A stretch of DNA of 64,000 bases from an uncultured cyanobacterium (GCA_963744145.1 CAVUSO010000001.1:6592001-6656000), one strand, 5' to 3'; counted from the stretch's first letter, positions 31,061-34,468 are shown. The notes: generated by a model from the sequence alone, not told the origin. Numbers and translations are program-made.

Positions 31061-34000
31061 GTGAGTGTCACAGTTCGCTTTACCCCAAGTCTCACCGGAA
31101 ATTTACAGATCGGACCAGCTAGAATAGCAGTTCTCAACTGGTTATTTGCTCGACATAGTGGGGGTCAGTTTATAGTCAGAATAGAAGATATTGATCAAGT
31201 GCGATCGCAAGACCAAGAGGGAGAAGAATCTAACTCCACCGATGCACAAAATATGCTGGATCAACTTGCTTGGTTGGGGTTAAATTGGGATCAAGAACCA
31301 ATTTTGTCATCTCAGCGTCTTGATATTTATCAACAAGCAATTCAGAAACTATTAGATCAGGGTTTAGCTTATCGTTGCTATTGTACCCCAGCAGAACTAA
31401 CCCAAATTCAAGAGGAACAAACAAACGGAAAAGAAGTTGCTCACTACGATAATCGTCATCGACAATTGACTCAGGAACAAGAAGCAACTTTTCGAGCAGA
31501 AGGACGTAGTGCAGTAATTCGGTTTAAGATCGATCAAGATCGTCAAATATCTTGGAATGACCTAGTACATGGTCAAGTCACCAGGAAAAGTAGTGATCTG
31601 GGTGGAGATATTATTATAGCTGGTGTGGCTGCTCCAGATCAGATTGGTCAACCCCTGCAAAATTTAACAGTGGTAGTAGATGATATCAATTTGGGAATTA
31701 CCCATGTGATTCAAGATGAAGATCTGATGATCACTACCCCAACCCAAATTTTGCTCTATGAAGCTTTAGCAGGAAAAATCCCAGAATTTGCCCATACACC
31801 ATTAATTTTAAATGAATCTGAGCAAACTCGATCTAAATCAGCAAGTTTCATCTCCATTTTTGATTTTAAGAAATTAGGTTATACATCAGAAGTAATCACT
31901 AACTATCTGACTTTGCTAGGGTGGACACCACCAGATAATAAAGAACGGTTTACTTTACAACAAGCAGCAGAAAAATTCAGCTTGGAGCGGTTTAATAAAA
32001 CTAATAGTAAATTTGACTGGGATAAACTTAACTGGTTAAATAGCCAATATTTGCATGAGTTACCGATCGCGGAACTTACAGATCTGTTAATCAGCTATTG
32101 GGAAGAAGCTGGATACAAATTTGATCCAATTAGCGATCGCGTTTGGTTAGAACAACTCACTACCTTAATTAGTCCGAGTTTAGTCCGACTCCAAGATGTA
32201 GTAGAACTTAGTAAAGTCTTTTTTGTCGAAGAAATCGAATTTAAACAAGAAGCGATTATTCAACTAACCAAAACGGAGTCCATCACTATTCTCAAAGGAA
32301 TTCTTGAGCATCTTGAGCAAGATTATCAACTAAATAAAACTAATGCTCATCGATTACTCAAACAAATCACTAAAGAATATAAGACCAAAAAAGAACAACC
32401 TCAAAGATTGCTAAGAGCAGCTTTAATGGGTGAATTACACGGAATTGATATCATCCAATCTTGGTTGTTACTTCATCAACGTGGATGGGATAAAATGCGA
32501 TTACGGTTAGCATTAAATCTCCCAGATTCACTAACCGCGATCGCGGAAGAATTATCGGAGTCGGTGACTGAGGAGTCGGAAAATCAAAACCTTGAACTTA
32601 GTCCAGTTAAAGACCAGGTAACTAGAAATTCTTTAGTAGAACCAATGAATAATGAACCGCTTAACCAAGAGGAAGACATAGCTCCGATTACATCAAACTC
32701 TGAATCCGAGCAAATCATCAACCATTCAGTTGCATTATCCCAACTAGAATCAGAGTTAGCAAAAATTGGAAATGAATTACAGGAAAGTGAAACAGCGCAA
32801 TCGCAATTAAATGCTCAACTCCATGATACTCAAATTAAACTCCAACAAACCGACCAAGATAAATCTCATTTAGAGTCAGCATTACAAGAAATTCAAGCAC
32901 AATTAAATCAATCGTCCCAGGAAAAAGAACAACTCCAAACAGTAATTCAAGAACATCATCAGCAACAAGCACAGTTTCAATCGCAAGTAGAGGAAATTAA
33001 ACGTCACTTAACCAAAGTAGAACAACAAAAATCCCATTTCCAATTGCAAGTGGAGGAAATTAAACAGCAATTAATCAAAGCTAATCAACAAACAGTTCAG
33101 TTCCAAGCAGAAATTGAAAATAGTCAGAAACAAAAAGCTCAACTACAGTCACAAATTGCTACCAATGAAACACAATTAAATCAAGCACATCAGCAAATAT
33201 CCCAACTGCAAGATGAGCTAAAAAAAGCATCCCAAGTAAAAATAAATCTAGAGTCAGAATTAGCAACTCGTTCACAGCAAATACTGGACAAAGAAAAGCA
33301 ATTACAGCAAGTTGAACAAGAGCGCAATCTGGGACAAGCTCAATTAGCAGAATTAGACCAGAACCGATCGCAACTTCAAGCACAAATTGCTCAACTGGAA
33401 TCGGAGTTAAACCAATCTAGTCAAGAGCGTTCTGGACTTGAATCCCAGTTAACAGAAATCCAAACTCAGTTACAACAAATTAAACAAGAACGTACTGAGA
33501 TTTCCACTCAACTAAGTAGCACTCAAACTGAGTTAAAACAAGTTGAACAAGAGCTAAAGTTGAGACAAGCTCAATTAGGAGAATCAGACCAGACTCAATC
33601 GCAACTTCAAGCACAAATTGCTCAACTAGAATCGGAGTTAAAGCAATCTGGTCAAGAACGTTCTAGACTTGAATCCCAGTTAGCAGAAATGCACATTCAG
33701 TTACAACAAACTGAACAAGAACGTACTCAGATTTCTAGTCAATTATTTCTAGTTCAGGGACATTTACATCAGAGCGAACAACAGCGGATTCAATTACAAT
33801 TACAGTTAGAGGAAGCAGAACGAAAATATTCTCATTTTCACTATCAATTCACCATCACTAAATCCCAGTTGCACCAATCTGAAGAAACGCGAAATCAAAT
33901 ATTATTGCAATTAGATGAGGTGGAAAGACAACGCTCTCAATTTGAAAAACAGCTCGAAGAAGTTCAAGCTCAATCCTACCAAACTCAACTAGAAAAAACT

Positions 34001-34468
34001 TTTGTTTCTAGTGAACTATTGCAATCCAATCAGATGCGATCGCAGCTATCCCATCAATTGAGTAATCTCCAAGAACAGTTGCAAAAATTACAGCAAGAAT
34101 ACTCGCACACTTACAACAAGTTAGAGCAAACTGATTATGACCGATCCTATTTTCAGTTTAGTCTATCCCAAGCTTACTTAAAAATGAATGAAGTCCAAAA
34201 AGAAAAATGGGATGTAACATCTCAGTTATTGAAATCTAAGGAAATACAAGCTCAACTGAAATATCAATTAGCCGATCGGGAAATTCAACTCCAGCAAGTC
34301 CAACAAGAACAAAGTAACACCCGATCGCAATTGACAGAAATTAATCAAGAGCGATCGCAATTAGAAACCAAAATCTCTCAATTACAATTGCGAAAAGCAT
34401 TGTGGATTTGGGGAATAGTAATTGCTTTACTTGTGGGGTCTTCTCTGACTTTGATATTGGTAAAGTAA
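31061..34468 (+). CDS. Glutamyl-tRNA synthetase paralogue with degenerate active site, fused to long coiled coil and C-terminal TM anchor
   Basis: First ~490 aa follow cyanobacterial GltX (RIED, WLGLNWD, AYRCYC, YDNRHR, FAHTPLI, LLGW, FDWDKLNWLN, LRAALMG) but the HIGH, YN, RGEDH and KLSKR motifs are altered; Q/E/L heptads; ends ALWIWGIVIALLVGSSLTLILVK. Confidence 0.9.
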   Translation: MSVTVRFTPSLTGNLQIGPARIAVLNWLFARHSGGQFIVRIEDIDQVRSQDQEGEESNSTDAQNMLDQLAWLGLNWDQEPILSSQRLDIYQQAIQKLLDQGLAYRCYCTPAELTQIQEEQTNGKEVAHYDNRHRQLTQEQEATFRAEGRSAVIRFKIDQDRQISWNDLVHGQVTRKSSDLGGDIIIAGVAAPDQIGQPLQNLTVVVDDINLGITHVIQDEDLMITTPTQILLYEALAGKIPEFAHTPLILNESEQTRSKSASFISIFDFKKLGYTSEVITNYLTLLGWTPPDNKERFTLQQAAEKFSLERFNKTNSKFDWDKLNWLNSQYLHELPIAELTDLLISYWEEAGYKFDPISDRVWLEQLTTLISPSLVRLQDVVELSKVFFVEEIEFKQEAIIQLTKTESITILKGILEHLEQDYQLNKTNAHRLLKQITKEYKTKKEQPQRLLRAALMGELHGIDIIQSWLLLHQRGWDKMRLRLALNLPDSLTAIAEELSESVTEESENQNLELSPVKDQVTRNSLVEPMNNEPLNQEEDIAPITSNSESEQIINHSVALSQLESELAKIGNELQESETAQSQLNAQLHDTQIKLQQTDQDKSHLESALQEIQAQLNQSSQEKEQLQTVIQEHHQQQAQFQSQVEEIKRHLTKVEQQKSHFQLQVEEIKQQLIKANQQTVQFQAEIENSQKQKAQLQSQIATNETQLNQAHQQISQLQDELKKASQVKINLESELATRSQQILDKEKQLQQVEQERNLGQAQLAELDQNRSQLQAQIAQLESELNQSSQERSGLESQLTEIQTQLQQIKQERTEISTQLSSTQTELKQVEQELKLRQAQLGESDQTQSQLQAQIAQLESELKQSGQERSRLESQLAEMHIQLQQTEQERTQISSQLFLVQGHLHQSEQQRIQLQLQLEEAERKYSHFHYQFTITKSQLHQSEETRNQILLQLDEVERQRSQFEKQLEEVQAQSYQTQLEKTFVSSELLQSNQMRSQLSHQLSNLQEQLQKLQQEYSHTYNKLEQTDYDRSYFQFSLSQAYLKMNEVQKEKWDVTSQLLKSKEIQAQLKYQLADREIQLQQVQQEQSNTRSQLTEINQERSQLETKISQLQLRKALWIWGIVIALLVGSSLTLILVK

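What the first reader, a model, noticed from the sequence alone, without database searches (positions are those of the whole stretch)
31061..34468. Membrane-tethered pseudo-glutamyl-tRNA synthetase on a ~600-aa coiled-coil stalk
Seen: an intact 1135-aa ORF whose N-terminal ~490 aa tracks cyanobacterial GltX, including the CYC...YDNRHR segment and anticodon-binding helices. The substrate motifs are replaced: APSPTG.LHIG becomes TPSLTGNLQIGP, PLYN becomes PLQN, IRGEDH becomes IQDEDL, and KLSKR becomes TRSKS. An acidic linker, Q/E/L heptads and one C-terminal TM helix follow. Established: HIGH/KMSKS bind ATP and the Tyr/Arg residues bind glutamate; some cyanobacterial synthetases are thylakoid-anchored via CAAD, which is a different domain on active enzymes. 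Inference: loss of chemistry with a retained fold and no stops suggests a repurposed tRNA(Glu/Gln)-binding scaffold held away from a membrane. It might position or sequester Glu-tRNA for tetrapyrrole synthesis or membrane translation, or act as a decoy or sensor. I do not know of a described equivalent.
Basis: partly seen in the sequence, partly recalled or inferred. Interest (0 to 1): 0.85.

Follow-up and report, generated by a model that had tools for sequence, protein, structure and literature searches.

The report
Dead glutamyl-tRNA synthetase on membrane stalk
A cyanobacterial gene encodes a copy of the enzyme that loads glutamate onto tRNA which has lost its key catalytic residues and is instead mounted on a very long helical stalk ending in a membrane anchor, a design seen in only one other protein in public databases and of unknown purpose.

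Summary
Window 31061-34468(+) is an intact 1135-codon gene. Residues 1-490 are a cyanobacterial GluRS (TIGR00464 452 bits; model matches PDB 2cfo, TM 0.94-0.95). Then come an acidic disordered linker (491-555), a proline-free heptad stalk (556-1111) and one C-terminal transmembrane helix (1112-1135).

Five active-site columns are near-invariant in 383 GluRS homologues. The protein has lost four: HIGH His, the Tyr/Phe, the RGEDH Arg and the KLSKR Arg.

Only one other protein shares the architecture, among 5.8 billion clusters and 1.84 billion exhaustively scanned representatives: P0003, 1102 aa, 42% identical. It also lacks four of the five, partly different ones. Its anchor motif is homologous and its head is sister to this one (SH-aLRT 99).

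The catalytic core diverged about twice as far as among canonical enzymes. The anticodon-binding domain diverged about as far as canonical enzymes do from each other.

Best reading: a retained, tail-anchored GluRS pseudoenzyme that holds a tRNA- or partner-binding head away from a membrane. It is not a CAAD enzyme.

Not shown: a canonical gltX in the same genome, tRNA binding, stalk oligomer state, or which membrane.

New variant of known kinds; rare; interest moderate to high.

The parts
31046..31050 (+). Shine-Dalgarno-like AGGAG, 10 nt before the GTG start. It sits in a 208-bp intergenic gap after the upstream WD40 gene.
   Evidence: sequence read; neighbouring ORF ends at 30852
31061..34468 (+). 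Whole gene: 1135 codons plus stop. Pseudo-GluRS head, linker, stalk and tail anchor.
31061..32035 (+). Residues 1-325: class I Rossmann-fold catalytic domain plus acceptor-binding insertion. Degenerate motifs: H16Q, Y200Q, R218Q, G219D, K256T, R260S.
   Evidence: Pfam PF00749 residues 3-325; alignment A1; column counts; AF2 pLDDT mostly above 90
31208..31231 (+). Residues 50-57: 8-residue acidic insertion. It is absent from P0003 and from canonical GluRS and is modelled as disordered.
   Evidence: alignment A1; pLDDT below 50 at residues 49-58
32036..32530 (+). Residues 326-490: helical anticodon-binding domain. It diverges from canonical GluRS about as much as canonical GluRS diverge from each other.
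   Evidence: Pfam PF19269 residues 341-471; 47.5% identity to canonical against a canonical-canonical median of 53.2%; 20 of 25 highly conserved columns kept
32531..32725 (+). Residues 491-555: acidic Ser/Glu/Asn-rich linker, predicted disordered.
   Evidence: composition; pLDDT below 50 at residues 499-550
32726..34393 (+). Residues 556-1111: Gln/Glu/Leu-rich heptad stalk with no proline. It is modelled as about five long helices separated by short breaks.
   Evidence: periodicity and composition; helices 549-687, 692-830, 852-894, 909-1023, 1028-1134; 3 of 4 breaks fall at aligned positions in the P0003 model
33308..33742 (+). In-frame tandem duplication inside the stalk: period 231 bp (77 codons), 1.9 copies, 88% matches.
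   Evidence: Tandem Repeats Finder; Nei-Gojobori comparison of the copies over 68 codons gives dN/dS 0.77
34394..34465 (+). Residues 1112-1135: single C-terminal transmembrane helix (tail anchor). The motif LW.WG...AL..GSSLT is shared with P0003.
   Evidence: hydropathy; alignments; 15 of 30 identical over residues 1106-1135

Best explanation
The gene encodes a paralogue of cyanobacterial glutamyl-tRNA synthetase that no longer makes Glu-tRNA. It is kept as a tail-anchored pseudoenzyme.

Proposed mechanism:
- The C-terminal helix inserts into a membrane, thylakoid or plasma membrane (undetermined).
- The head faces the cytoplasm. There is no N-terminal signal sequence, and only two residues follow the helix.
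- The roughly 555-residue segmented helical stalk and the 65-residue disordered linker hold the head away from the membrane. The distance is up to about 80 nm if the stalk is one continuous rod, or about 15-20 nm if its five segments fold back on each other.
- The head keeps the GluRS fold and a normally conserved anticodon-binding domain. It has lost the ATP and glutamate chemistry and several invariant arginines of the acceptor side.

I therefore think it acts as a binding module. Most likely it binds the anticodon arm of tRNA(Glu) or tRNA(Gln). Alternatively it binds a protein partner of GluRS. Either way it would tether or sequester that ligand near a membrane.

How firm each step is:
- Shown by sequence: fold, motif loss, architecture, a conserved homologue.
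- Inferred: loss of activity, topology, ligand, biological role.
For: 1. The fold is retained.
- TIGR00464 scores 452 bits against a cut-off of 290.
- The AF2 head has pLDDT mostly above 90.
- Foldseek to 2cfo: E 3.8e-55, target TM 0.94-0.95.

2. The chemistry is lost. Among 383 GluRS homologues with all key columns filled, the residues are: H16 in 382, aromatic at 200 in 383 (Y 363, F 20), R218 in 383, K259 in 383, R260 in 383.
- This protein has Q, Q, Q, K, S.
- P0003 has E, D, R, E, A.
- The same columns are invariant in 3 deltaproteobacterial outgroup rows and in fast-evolving Prochlorococcus.

3. It is not decay.
- Both proteins keep open frames of more than 1100 codons, the same domain order, similar stalk lengths and a shared anchor motif.
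- The heads are sister in the tree: SH-aLRT 99, stem 0.21.
- Of 185 columns at least 95% identical in 49 canonical cyanobacterial GluRS, 22 changed in both proteins against 11.2 expected (P = 3.9e-5). Six of these changed to the same residue.

4. Constraint differs by domain. Identity to canonical GluRS versus the canonical-canonical median:
- Rossmann N half: 60-66% versus 79%.
- Rossmann C half: 60-61% versus 80%.
- Acceptor domain: 57-58% versus 70%.
- Anticodon-binding domain: 47% versus 53%.

5. Tether anatomy: heptad periodicity, no proline, and a single terminal hydrophobic helix in both proteins. The linker is disordered in both models.

6. The gene has its own ribosome-binding site, and the start codon aligns with canonical starts.
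Against: - A canonical gltX in the same genome was not found or excluded.
- The family is tiny. There are two clusters, with 1 and 3 member sequences, on one contig each. It may be a lineage-specific oddity.
- One otherwise canonical homologue (P0305) also has Gln at the HIGH His. That change alone does not prove inactivity.
- This protein keeps K259 and P0003 keeps R218.
- Six Arg columns invariant in canonical enzymes are changed in both proteins: R4, R117, R128, R170, R188, R260.
- The head is more acidic than the canonical median: net charge -18 against -12, canonical range -23 to +13. This argues against full tRNA binding, at least on the acceptor side.
- The stalk sequence is weakly constrained. 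It is 32.5% identical to P0003 against 26.2 +/- 1.9% for shuffled controls. dN/dS between the two internal repeat copies is 0.77, from only 6 synonymous and 18 non-synonymous differences.
- There is no tRNA gene and no Rfam element in the window.
- There is no operon partner. The neighbours are a mixed set.
- The sister grouping joins two long branches (0.77 each against a median of 0.25). Placed alone, P0003 drifts towards the outgroup.
Confidence: 0.45

Rival explanations
1. Structural or organising coiled-coil protein. The stalk and anchor are the working parts, for example a membrane-attached cytoskeletal or spacing element. The GluRS-derived head serves only as a protein-protein interaction or capping domain and has no tRNA role.
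For: - The stalk is half the protein. Its length and segmentation are conserved: 3 of 4 modelled breaks align.
- Its Pfam and NCBIfam matches are to crescentin, SMC and tropomyosin-type rods.
- Invariant arginines of the head are lost in both members.
- In Anabaena, GFP-GluRS co-purified unvalidated protein partners including a WD-repeat protein (PMC4893482, Table S4, read). Here a membrane WD40 protein is the immediate upstream neighbour.
Against: - The stalk sequence is barely more conserved than shuffled controls, while the head is 54% identical between the two members.
- The anticodon-binding domain evolves at about the canonical rate. That is unexplained if only a generic cap is needed.
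- WD40 proteins are common in this window, with at least two, so the adjacency may be chance.
Confidence: 0.28
2. An atypical but still active membrane-anchored GluRS, analogous to the CAAD-bearing enzymes. It might be the cell's only GluRS or a specialised second one.
For: - It scores above the curated GltX cut-off.
- K259 of the KMSKS-type loop, R6, S10 and E42 are kept.
- One canonical-looking homologue tolerates Gln at the HIGH His.
- Membrane-anchored active aaRS are established in cyanobacteria (PMC4893482, passages read).
- A second gltX in this genome was not demonstrated.
Against: - It lacks four of five columns that are invariant or near-invariant in 383 homologues. Its only relative lacks a partly different four. 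That pattern fits relaxed rather than altered catalytic constraint.
- 48 of 185 highly conserved columns are changed.
- Tip branches are three times the median.
Confidence: 0.07
3. A recent duplicate or fusion on its way to becoming a pseudogene, or an assembly artefact, with no function.
For: - It is very rare.
- There are many substitutions at conserved sites.
- The stalk repeat has dN/dS 0.77.
- A recent internal duplication suggests a plastic sequence.
Against: - The frame is intact over 1135 codons in AT-rich DNA.
- A second, independently sampled protein 42% identical overall keeps the same order of parts and the same anchor motif.
- The head is confidently folded in both models.
- The gene lies inside a 7.6-Mb contig and has its own ribosome-binding site.
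Confidence: 0.05
4. A defence or decoy element. The dead synthetase head would act as bait or sensor for a phage factor that targets GluRS or tRNA(Glu), held at the membrane.
For: - The locus lies in a variable-looking region. It holds a contractile-injection-system gene set, a Ser/Thr kinase matching PADLOC PD-T4-6 models (444 bits), an HNH protein and a transposase-like ORF.
- Patchy distribution is typical of defence genes.
Against: - PADLOC gives only generic coiled-coil matches (JetC, E 1e-6 or weaker) for the protein itself.
- There is no effector domain and no conserved partner gene.
- tblastn found no record covering at least 80% of the query among 72,556 plasmid and 50,697 phage records.
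Confidence: 0.07

Closest known systems
CAAD-anchored cyanobacterial aminoacyl-tRNA synthetases, especially GluRS with CAAD (PMC4893482)
   Same: - A cyanobacterial GluRS core is followed by a low-complexity linker and a C-terminal membrane anchor.
- These are among the closest sequence relatives of the head, at 52-59% identity.
- They are its nearest rows by path in the main tree and the P0001-only tree; for P0003 alone, CAAD_P0004 is nearest, followed by non-CAAD rows.
   Different: - CAAD (PF14159: two transmembrane helices plus a short coiled coil) is absent here. The anchor here is one helix after a roughly 555-residue stalk.
- The CAAD enzymes keep all catalytic motifs. They are taken to be the cell's active enzyme (PMC4893482, passages read).
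GluQRS / YadB, the GluRS paralogue listed in the review of duplicated aaRS (PMC9437257, Table 1, passage read)
   Same: A GluRS-derived paralogue with a role outside translation.
   Different: - YadB is an active enzyme that lacks the anticodon-binding domain.
- This protein keeps that domain and has lost catalytic residues.
- Its NCBIfam GluQRS scores (185 bits) are below the cut-offs (250-277).
Synthetase-derived pseudoenzymes such as the HisRS-like domain of GCN2 and HisZ (recalled, not tested here)
   Same: An aaRS fold that has lost aminoacylation and is reused as a ligand-binding or regulatory module. GCN2 uses its domain to bind uncharged tRNA.
   Different: They are class II and unrelated in sequence. 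They are soluble, with no coiled-coil stalk or membrane anchor.
Plasmodium tRip, a membrane-anchored tRNA-binding scaffold for synthetases (PMC9136112, passages read)
   Same: An integral membrane protein that carries a tRNA-binding module and organises GluRS-containing complexes at a membrane.
   Different: It is eukaryotic and built from GST-like and EMAPII-like domains. It has no synthetase fold, and its tRNA-binding module faces outside the cell.
Tail-anchored coiled-coil tethers of eukaryotes (golgins) and bacterial coiled-coil-rich proteins such as crescentin (recalled; Pfam rod matches)
   Same: A head, a very long coiled coil and a C-terminal anchor. The heptad-rich rod is interrupted by short breaks.
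   Different: Homology is by composition only. No known member carries a synthetase-derived head.

Membership tests
Bacterial glutamate-tRNA ligase (GltX, TIGR00464) | Sequence and fold of the catalytic and anticodon-binding domains | tested here: met
   - 452.5 bits against a cut-off of 289.95.
- PF00749 and PF19269 both match.
- Foldseek to 2cfo gives target TM 0.94-0.95.
Bacterial glutamate-tRNA ligase (GltX, TIGR00464) | HIGH-type motif with its first His (ATP binding) | tested here: not met
   This protein has Gln16 and P0003 has Glu16. The column is His in 382 of 383 homologues.
Bacterial glutamate-tRNA ligase (GltX, TIGR00464) | KMSKS-type loop (KLSKR in cyanobacteria) | tested here: not met
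   The loop is TRSKS here: K256T and R260S, with K259 kept. P0003 has KLSEA. K259 and R260 are each present in 383 of 383 homologues.
Bacterial glutamate-tRNA ligase (GltX, TIGR00464) | Glutamate-pocket residues. These are the aromatic of PLYN and the Arg of RGEDH. Their role is recalled from Thermus GluRS structures. | tested here: not met
   This protein has Q200 and Q218. The aromatic column is Y or F in 383 of 383 homologues and the Arg column is R in 383 of 383. P0003 has D at the aromatic column and keeps the Arg.
Bacterial glutamate-tRNA ligase (GltX, TIGR00464) | Aminoacylation of tRNA(Glu) | not testable with these tools
   This needs ATP-PPi exchange and charging assays.
CAAD-anchored aaRS of cyanobacteria | CAAD/CURT1-type domain (PF14159) with two transmembrane helices | tested here: not met
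   - Pfam gave no PF14159 hit at E <= 0.1.
- There is one hydrophobic segment only.
- All 118 other long relatives listed carry PF14159.
CAAD-anchored aaRS of cyanobacteria | Catalytically competent enzyme | tested here: not met
   By motif only: four of five near-invariant active-site columns are lost. No assay was done.
GluQRS / YadB | Catalytic domain only, with no anticodon-binding domain and intact motifs | tested here: not met
   The anticodon-binding domain is present. GluQRS models score 185 bits against cut-offs of 250-277. The motifs are degenerate.
Tail-anchored membrane proteins | Single transmembrane helix at the extreme C terminus, no N-terminal signal sequence | tested here: met
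   - The hydrophobic helix spans 1112-1135 and ends two residues before the stop.
- There is no other hydrophobic window.
- The N terminus is the first strand of the Rossmann fold.
- Actual insertion was not tested.
Long coiled-coil (rod) proteins | Extended heptad periodicity without helix breakers | tested here: met
   - Periodicity at 3.5 residues is 3-17 times background across 561-1105, with 0 Pro, in both members.
- AF2 models the region as long helices.
- The oligomer state is not determined.

The most novel reading that the evidence does not exclude
A prokaryotic 'golgin-like' tether. A tail-anchored rod tens of nanometres long uses a dead GluRS as a specific capture head for tRNA(Glu) or tRNA(Gln), charged or uncharged. 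It would concentrate or sense this tRNA at thylakoid or plasma membranes. That would couple tRNA(Glu) supply to chlorophyll and haem synthesis or to membrane-local translation. Its logic would resemble the HisRS-like tRNA sensor of GCN2, but spatial rather than kinase-linked.
Probability: 0.18. Interest if true: 0.85.

Novelty: new variant of a known kind. Interest (0 to 1): 0.6.

Why it matters
Synthetase paralogues that have lost catalysis are a recurring source of new functions. The review of duplicated aaRS that I read lists only YadB for GluRS (PMC9437257, passage). Cyanobacteria are also the only organisms known to anchor active synthetases to membranes (PMC4893482, passages). This protein joins the two themes in a new way: a dead GluRS, a different anchor, and a stalk long enough to act as a spacer or tether.

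In cyanobacteria Glu-tRNA(Glu) feeds both translation and tetrapyrrole synthesis. A membrane-held tRNA(Glu)-binding module would therefore give a direct handle on how this tRNA pool is partitioned in space.

Against this, the family is extremely rare. Any role is likely lineage-specific rather than general.

Tried and rejected
- **Canonical gltX in the same genome.**
  - I looked for a GluRS hit on a 7,634,710-bp contig among the 120 listed long hits and the 120 listed short hits. There was none, but thousands of hits were not listed.
It returned 80 loci, none covering the stalk and none from this genome. The question stays open.
- **The listing of cluster members.** It was unavailable twice. 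Taxon names of close relatives and the members of the P0003 cluster could not be read.
- **Closed collections.** The 29.6-kb contig of P0003, its neighbours and its DNA (needed for dN/dS) stayed unseen.
- **C-terminal module searched alone.** Residues 1000-1135 against proteins of 624-1987 aa found only the protein itself.
- **ESM Atlas on residues 490-1135.** The best score was 0.81, a generic coiled coil below the level of a lead.
- **Homodimer prediction of stalk residues 905-1135.** No verdict: score 0.02 against a mark of 0.42. It says nothing either way. Earlier hand-ins met a full queue.
- **PADLOC.** It gave only generic JetC coiled-coil matches for the protein.
- **Plasmid and phage collections.** There were 126 and 40 records with GluRS-domain matches. 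None covered at least 80% of the query.
- **tRNA and Rfam scans of the window.** Nothing found.
- **Window ORFs against the 80 fetched loci, to place the organism.** One irrelevant glycosyltransferase hit.
- **Tree robustness.**
  - One script call returned no answer.
  - The lighter repeat (LG+G4, quick) left the position of the clade within cyanobacteria unresolved.
  - It also showed long-branch attraction of P0003 when P0003 was placed alone.
- **CAAD origin of the anchor.** Considered and rejected: there is no PF14159 signal.
- **Literature.**
  - Searches found no description of a GluRS-coiled-coil-anchor protein.
  - The library lacks most subscription-journal papers, including the original CAAD and GluRS structure papers.

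
Full report
**What is there**

Window 31061-34468 (+) is a single open frame of 1135 codons starting at GTG.
- An AGGAG lies 10 nt upstream, in a 208-bp gap after the preceding gene.
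- The GTG aligns with the initiator Met of canonical enzymes.
- At about 37-38% G+C, an open frame of this length is not a chance event. My arithmetic from base composition gives about 1e-34.

**The head (residues 1-490)**

It is unmistakably a cyanobacterial GluRS.
- Pfam finds the class I E/Q catalytic domain at 3-325 (7.9e-74) and the anticodon-binding domain at 341-471.
- NCBIfam's gltX_bact model scores 452.5 bits, above its curated cut-off of 289.95.
- The best solved structure by sequence is the cyanobacterial GluRS 2cfo, at 521.8 bits.
- An AlphaFold2 model built on a 40-row alignment gives pLDDT mostly above 90 for the head.
- The model superposes on 2cfo with target TM-score 0.94-0.95.

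Of these, 383 had every key column filled.

| Column | Residues among 383 homologues | This protein | P0003 |
|---|---|---|---|
| 16 (HIGH His) | H 382, Q 1 | Q | E |
| 200 (aromatic of PLYN) | Y 363, F 20 | Q | D |
| 218 (Arg of RGEDH) | R 383 | Q | R |
| 259 (second Lys of KLSKR) | K 383 | K | E |
| 260 (Arg of KLSKR) | R 383 | S | A |

So this protein has lost four of five.
- The same columns are invariant in three deltaproteobacterial outgroup rows and in fast-evolving Prochlorococcus.
- The assignment of these residues to ATP and glutamate binding is recalled from the Thermus GluRS structures. I did not test it here.

- The retained Lys in TRSKS is the invariant one.
- The His-to-Leu change in RGEDH falls in a naturally variable column (H 364, W 11, L 5, I 2, F 1).

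One caution: a single otherwise canonical homologue (P0305) also has Gln at the HIGH His.

**The tail**
- Residues 491-555 are acidic and Ser/Asn-rich and are modelled as disordered.
- Residues 556-1111 have no proline and are 24% Gln, 12% Glu and 13% Leu. Their 3.5-residue hydrophobic periodicity is 3-17 times background, against 0-1.8 in the head.
- The only strongly hydrophobic windows start at 1112-1117. They give one transmembrane helix that ends two residues before the stop.
- With no N-terminal signal sequence, this is the layout of a tail-anchored protein with a cytoplasmic head. That topology is an inference.
- AF2 breaks the stalk into about five long helices.
- If the stalk were one continuous rod it would span about 80 nm at 0.1485 nm per residue. 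If the segments fold back it would span about 15-20 nm. Which applies is not known.
- An in-frame 231-bp tandem duplication (88% matches) lies within the stalk at 33308-33742.

**Relatives**
- Word-indexed search of 5.8 billion protein clusters, restricted to 624-1987 residues: 120 rows listed.
  - One was the protein itself, on a 7,634,710-bp contig.
  - One was a full-length relative, P0003 (1102 aa).
  - The other 118 were GluRS-CAAD enzymes. All carry PF14159 and all cover only the head.
- Exhaustive HMMER scan of 1.84 billion 50%-identity representatives: only the protein itself and P0003 share the architecture.
  - One fragment, P0246, matched into the linker.
  - It proved to be a CAAD enzyme with canonical motifs.
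- P0003 has the same order of parts.
  - It is 42% identical overall and 53.9% in the head.
  - It is 32.5% identical in the stalk, against 26.2 +/- 1.9% (maximum 30.0%) for shuffled controls.
  - It is 38.1% identical, without gaps, over the last 105 stalk residues.
  - It is 15 of 30 identical over the anchor, with a shared LW.WG...AL..GSSLT motif.
- Its AF2 model has the same segmentation. Three of four breaks fall at aligned positions. The two models share an alignment, so they are not independent.

**Is it a maintained gene or a decaying copy?**
- Tree: 55 rows, 483 columns.
  - The two heads are sister, with SH-aLRT 99 and stem 0.21.
  - They sit inside cyanobacterial GluRS on tip branches of 0.77 each, against a median of 0.25.
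  - Two long branches can attract each other. When each is placed alone, this protein sits nearest CAAD-type enzymes, but P0003 drifts towards the outgroup. The position of the clade is therefore unresolved.
- Common descent is independently supported by the shared stalk and anchor and by shared substitutions.
  - Of 185 columns at least 95% identical in 49 canonical cyanobacterial GluRS, this protein keeps 137 and P0003 keeps 142.
  - 22 columns changed in both, against 11.2 expected (P = 3.9e-5).
  - Six changed to the same residue: A8T, R117Q, A126V, R128H, M184I, T264I.
- Divergence is uneven:

| Domain | This protein / P0003 vs canonical | Canonical vs canonical (median) |
|---|---|---|
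| Rossmann N half | 59.8 / 66.3% | 79.3% |
| Acceptor-binding insertion | 57.7 / 57.4% | 70.2% |
| Rossmann C half | 60.4 / 60.8% | 80.2% |
| Anticodon-binding domain | 47.5 / 46.5% | 53.2% |

- Constraint has been relaxed on the chemistry. It has been roughly kept on the anticodon-binding domain.
- This fits a head that still recognises the anticodon arm of tRNA(Glu) or tRNA(Gln) but no longer handles the acceptor end.
- Against full tRNA binding:
  - Six invariant arginines are changed in both proteins.
  - The head is more acidic than the canonical median: -18 against -12, within the range -23 to +13.
- The only codon-level estimate available is between the two stalk repeat copies. It gives dN/dS 0.77, from 6 synonymous and 18 non-synonymous differences over 68 codons. 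That is weak constraint on the stalk sequence, as is common for rods.

**Context**

The neighbours give no operon logic.
- Upstream on the same strand is a membrane WD40-repeat protein (29221-30852).
- Further upstream are a Ser/Thr kinase with a TM2 domain and, on the other strand, AcsF, a chlorophyll-pathway cyclase (TIGR02029, 536 bits).
- Downstream are a 72-codon ORF with a strong ribosome-binding site, no family match, and a DsbA-like protein.
- The window holds no tRNA gene and no Rfam element.
- AcsF lies 5.7 kb away on the opposite strand. That is too weak to count as a tetrapyrrole link.
- One lead from the literature:
  - In Anabaena, GFP-tagged canonical GluRS co-purified a WD-repeat protein among several partners (Table S4 of PMC4893482).
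  - The authors describe these partners as unvalidated (passage).
  - WD40 genes are frequent here, so the adjacency may be chance.

**Comparison with what is known**
- Membrane-anchored active synthetases are a cyanobacterial speciality.
  - They use the CAAD domain, which has two transmembrane helices and a short coiled coil.
  - GluRS-CAAD was found in 5 of 279 genomes and is thought to have arisen by fusion with a neighbouring curt1 gene (PMC4893482, passages read).
- The present protein resembles these in layout, and they are among its nearest relatives. It fails the family's defining tests: no CAAD, one helix, degenerate catalytic motifs.
- It is not GluQRS/YadB, which is active and lacks the anticodon-binding domain (PMC9437257, passage).
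- In logic it resembles synthetase-derived pseudoenzymes such as the HisRS-like tRNA-binding domain of GCN2 (recalled).
- It also resembles membrane tRNA-binding scaffolds such as Plasmodium tRip (PMC9136112, passages). In shape it resembles tail-anchored coiled-coil tethers (recalled).
- Eight full-text searches found no description of a GluRS on a coiled-coil stalk. The library omits most subscription-journal papers.

**What remains open**
- The key control, a canonical gltX elsewhere in the genome, could not be made.
  - The one genome scan was saturated by other species' gltX.
  - The cluster look-up tool was off.
- I infer that a canonical copy exists. GluRS is essential, and this protein lacks residues that every functional homologue examined keeps. 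This is an inference, not a result.
- The stalk's oligomer state is unknown. The one complex job gave no verdict.
- The target membrane, the ligand of the head and any phenotype are untested.

**Verdict**
- The reading 'membrane-tethered pseudo-GluRS' is well supported at the level of anatomy and evolutionary retention.
- The proposed role, tRNA(Glu/Gln) tethering, is plausible but unproven. A protein-scaffold role is nearly as likely.
- It is a new variant at the meeting point of two known kinds, and very rare.

Noticed in passing
window 425-9662 (+): A gene set of a phage-tail-like contractile injection system:
- a VgrG-related protein (NF033848, 334 bits);
- a baseplate assembly protein TIGR02243 split into two adjacent ORFs, 3821-5461 (model positions 1-519) and 5484-6020 (positions 539-659), which suggests a frameshift or a natural split;
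- a phage-tail domain protein with a CIS12-family match, and a weak CIS13-family match.
   Followed up: partly
window 29221-30852 (+): - The immediate upstream neighbour on the same strand is a 543-aa protein with N-terminal hydrophobic segments and WD40 repeats.
- In Anabaena, GFP-GluRS co-purified a WD-repeat protein, Alr2791 (PMC4893482 Table S4). This is a possible partner lead.
   Followed up: partly
window 34683-34901 (+): A 72-codon ORF 215 nt downstream of the stop, preceded by AAGGAG. It has no Pfam, NCBIfam or PADLOC match.
   Followed up: partly
window 24307-25383 (-): AcsF, the aerobic Mg-protoporphyrin IX monomethyl ester cyclase of chlorophyll synthesis (TIGR02029, 536 bits). It lies 5.7 kb upstream on the opposite strand. 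That is too distant to count as linkage.
   Followed up: yes
window 25618-27042 (+): A Ser/Thr protein kinase with a C-terminal TM2 domain. It matches PADLOC PD-T4-6 models strongly (444 bits, E 2e-133). Whether this is a defence gene or an ordinary cyanobacterial kinase was not examined.
   Followed up: no
window 33308-33742 (+): A 231-bp in-frame tandem duplication (1.9 copies, 88% matches) inside the stalk, so stalk length is evolving. There is also a 63-bp repeat (2.3 copies) at 32963-33106.
   Followed up: yes
window 17573-24082 (+) and 54681-60059 (+): Two giant genes:
- a 2169-aa protein with five Laminin_G_3 domains;
- a 1792-aa protein with Pkinase, AAA_16, GAF and HATPase_c domains.
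   Followed up: no
and tables (P0010 and P0146): A 632-aa GluRS-CAAD and the cluster of a 495-aa plain GluRS both list a longest contig of 6,929,393 bp. One Oscillatoria-type genome may therefore carry two canonical gltX genes, one with CAAD and one without. This shows that gltX duplication occurs in this group.
   Followed up: no
window 62448-63953 (-) and 45505-46770 (+): An HNH_2 endonuclease-domain protein (500 aa) and an ORF with a weak DDE transposase match (E 0.0011). These hint at a variable genomic region.
   Followed up: no
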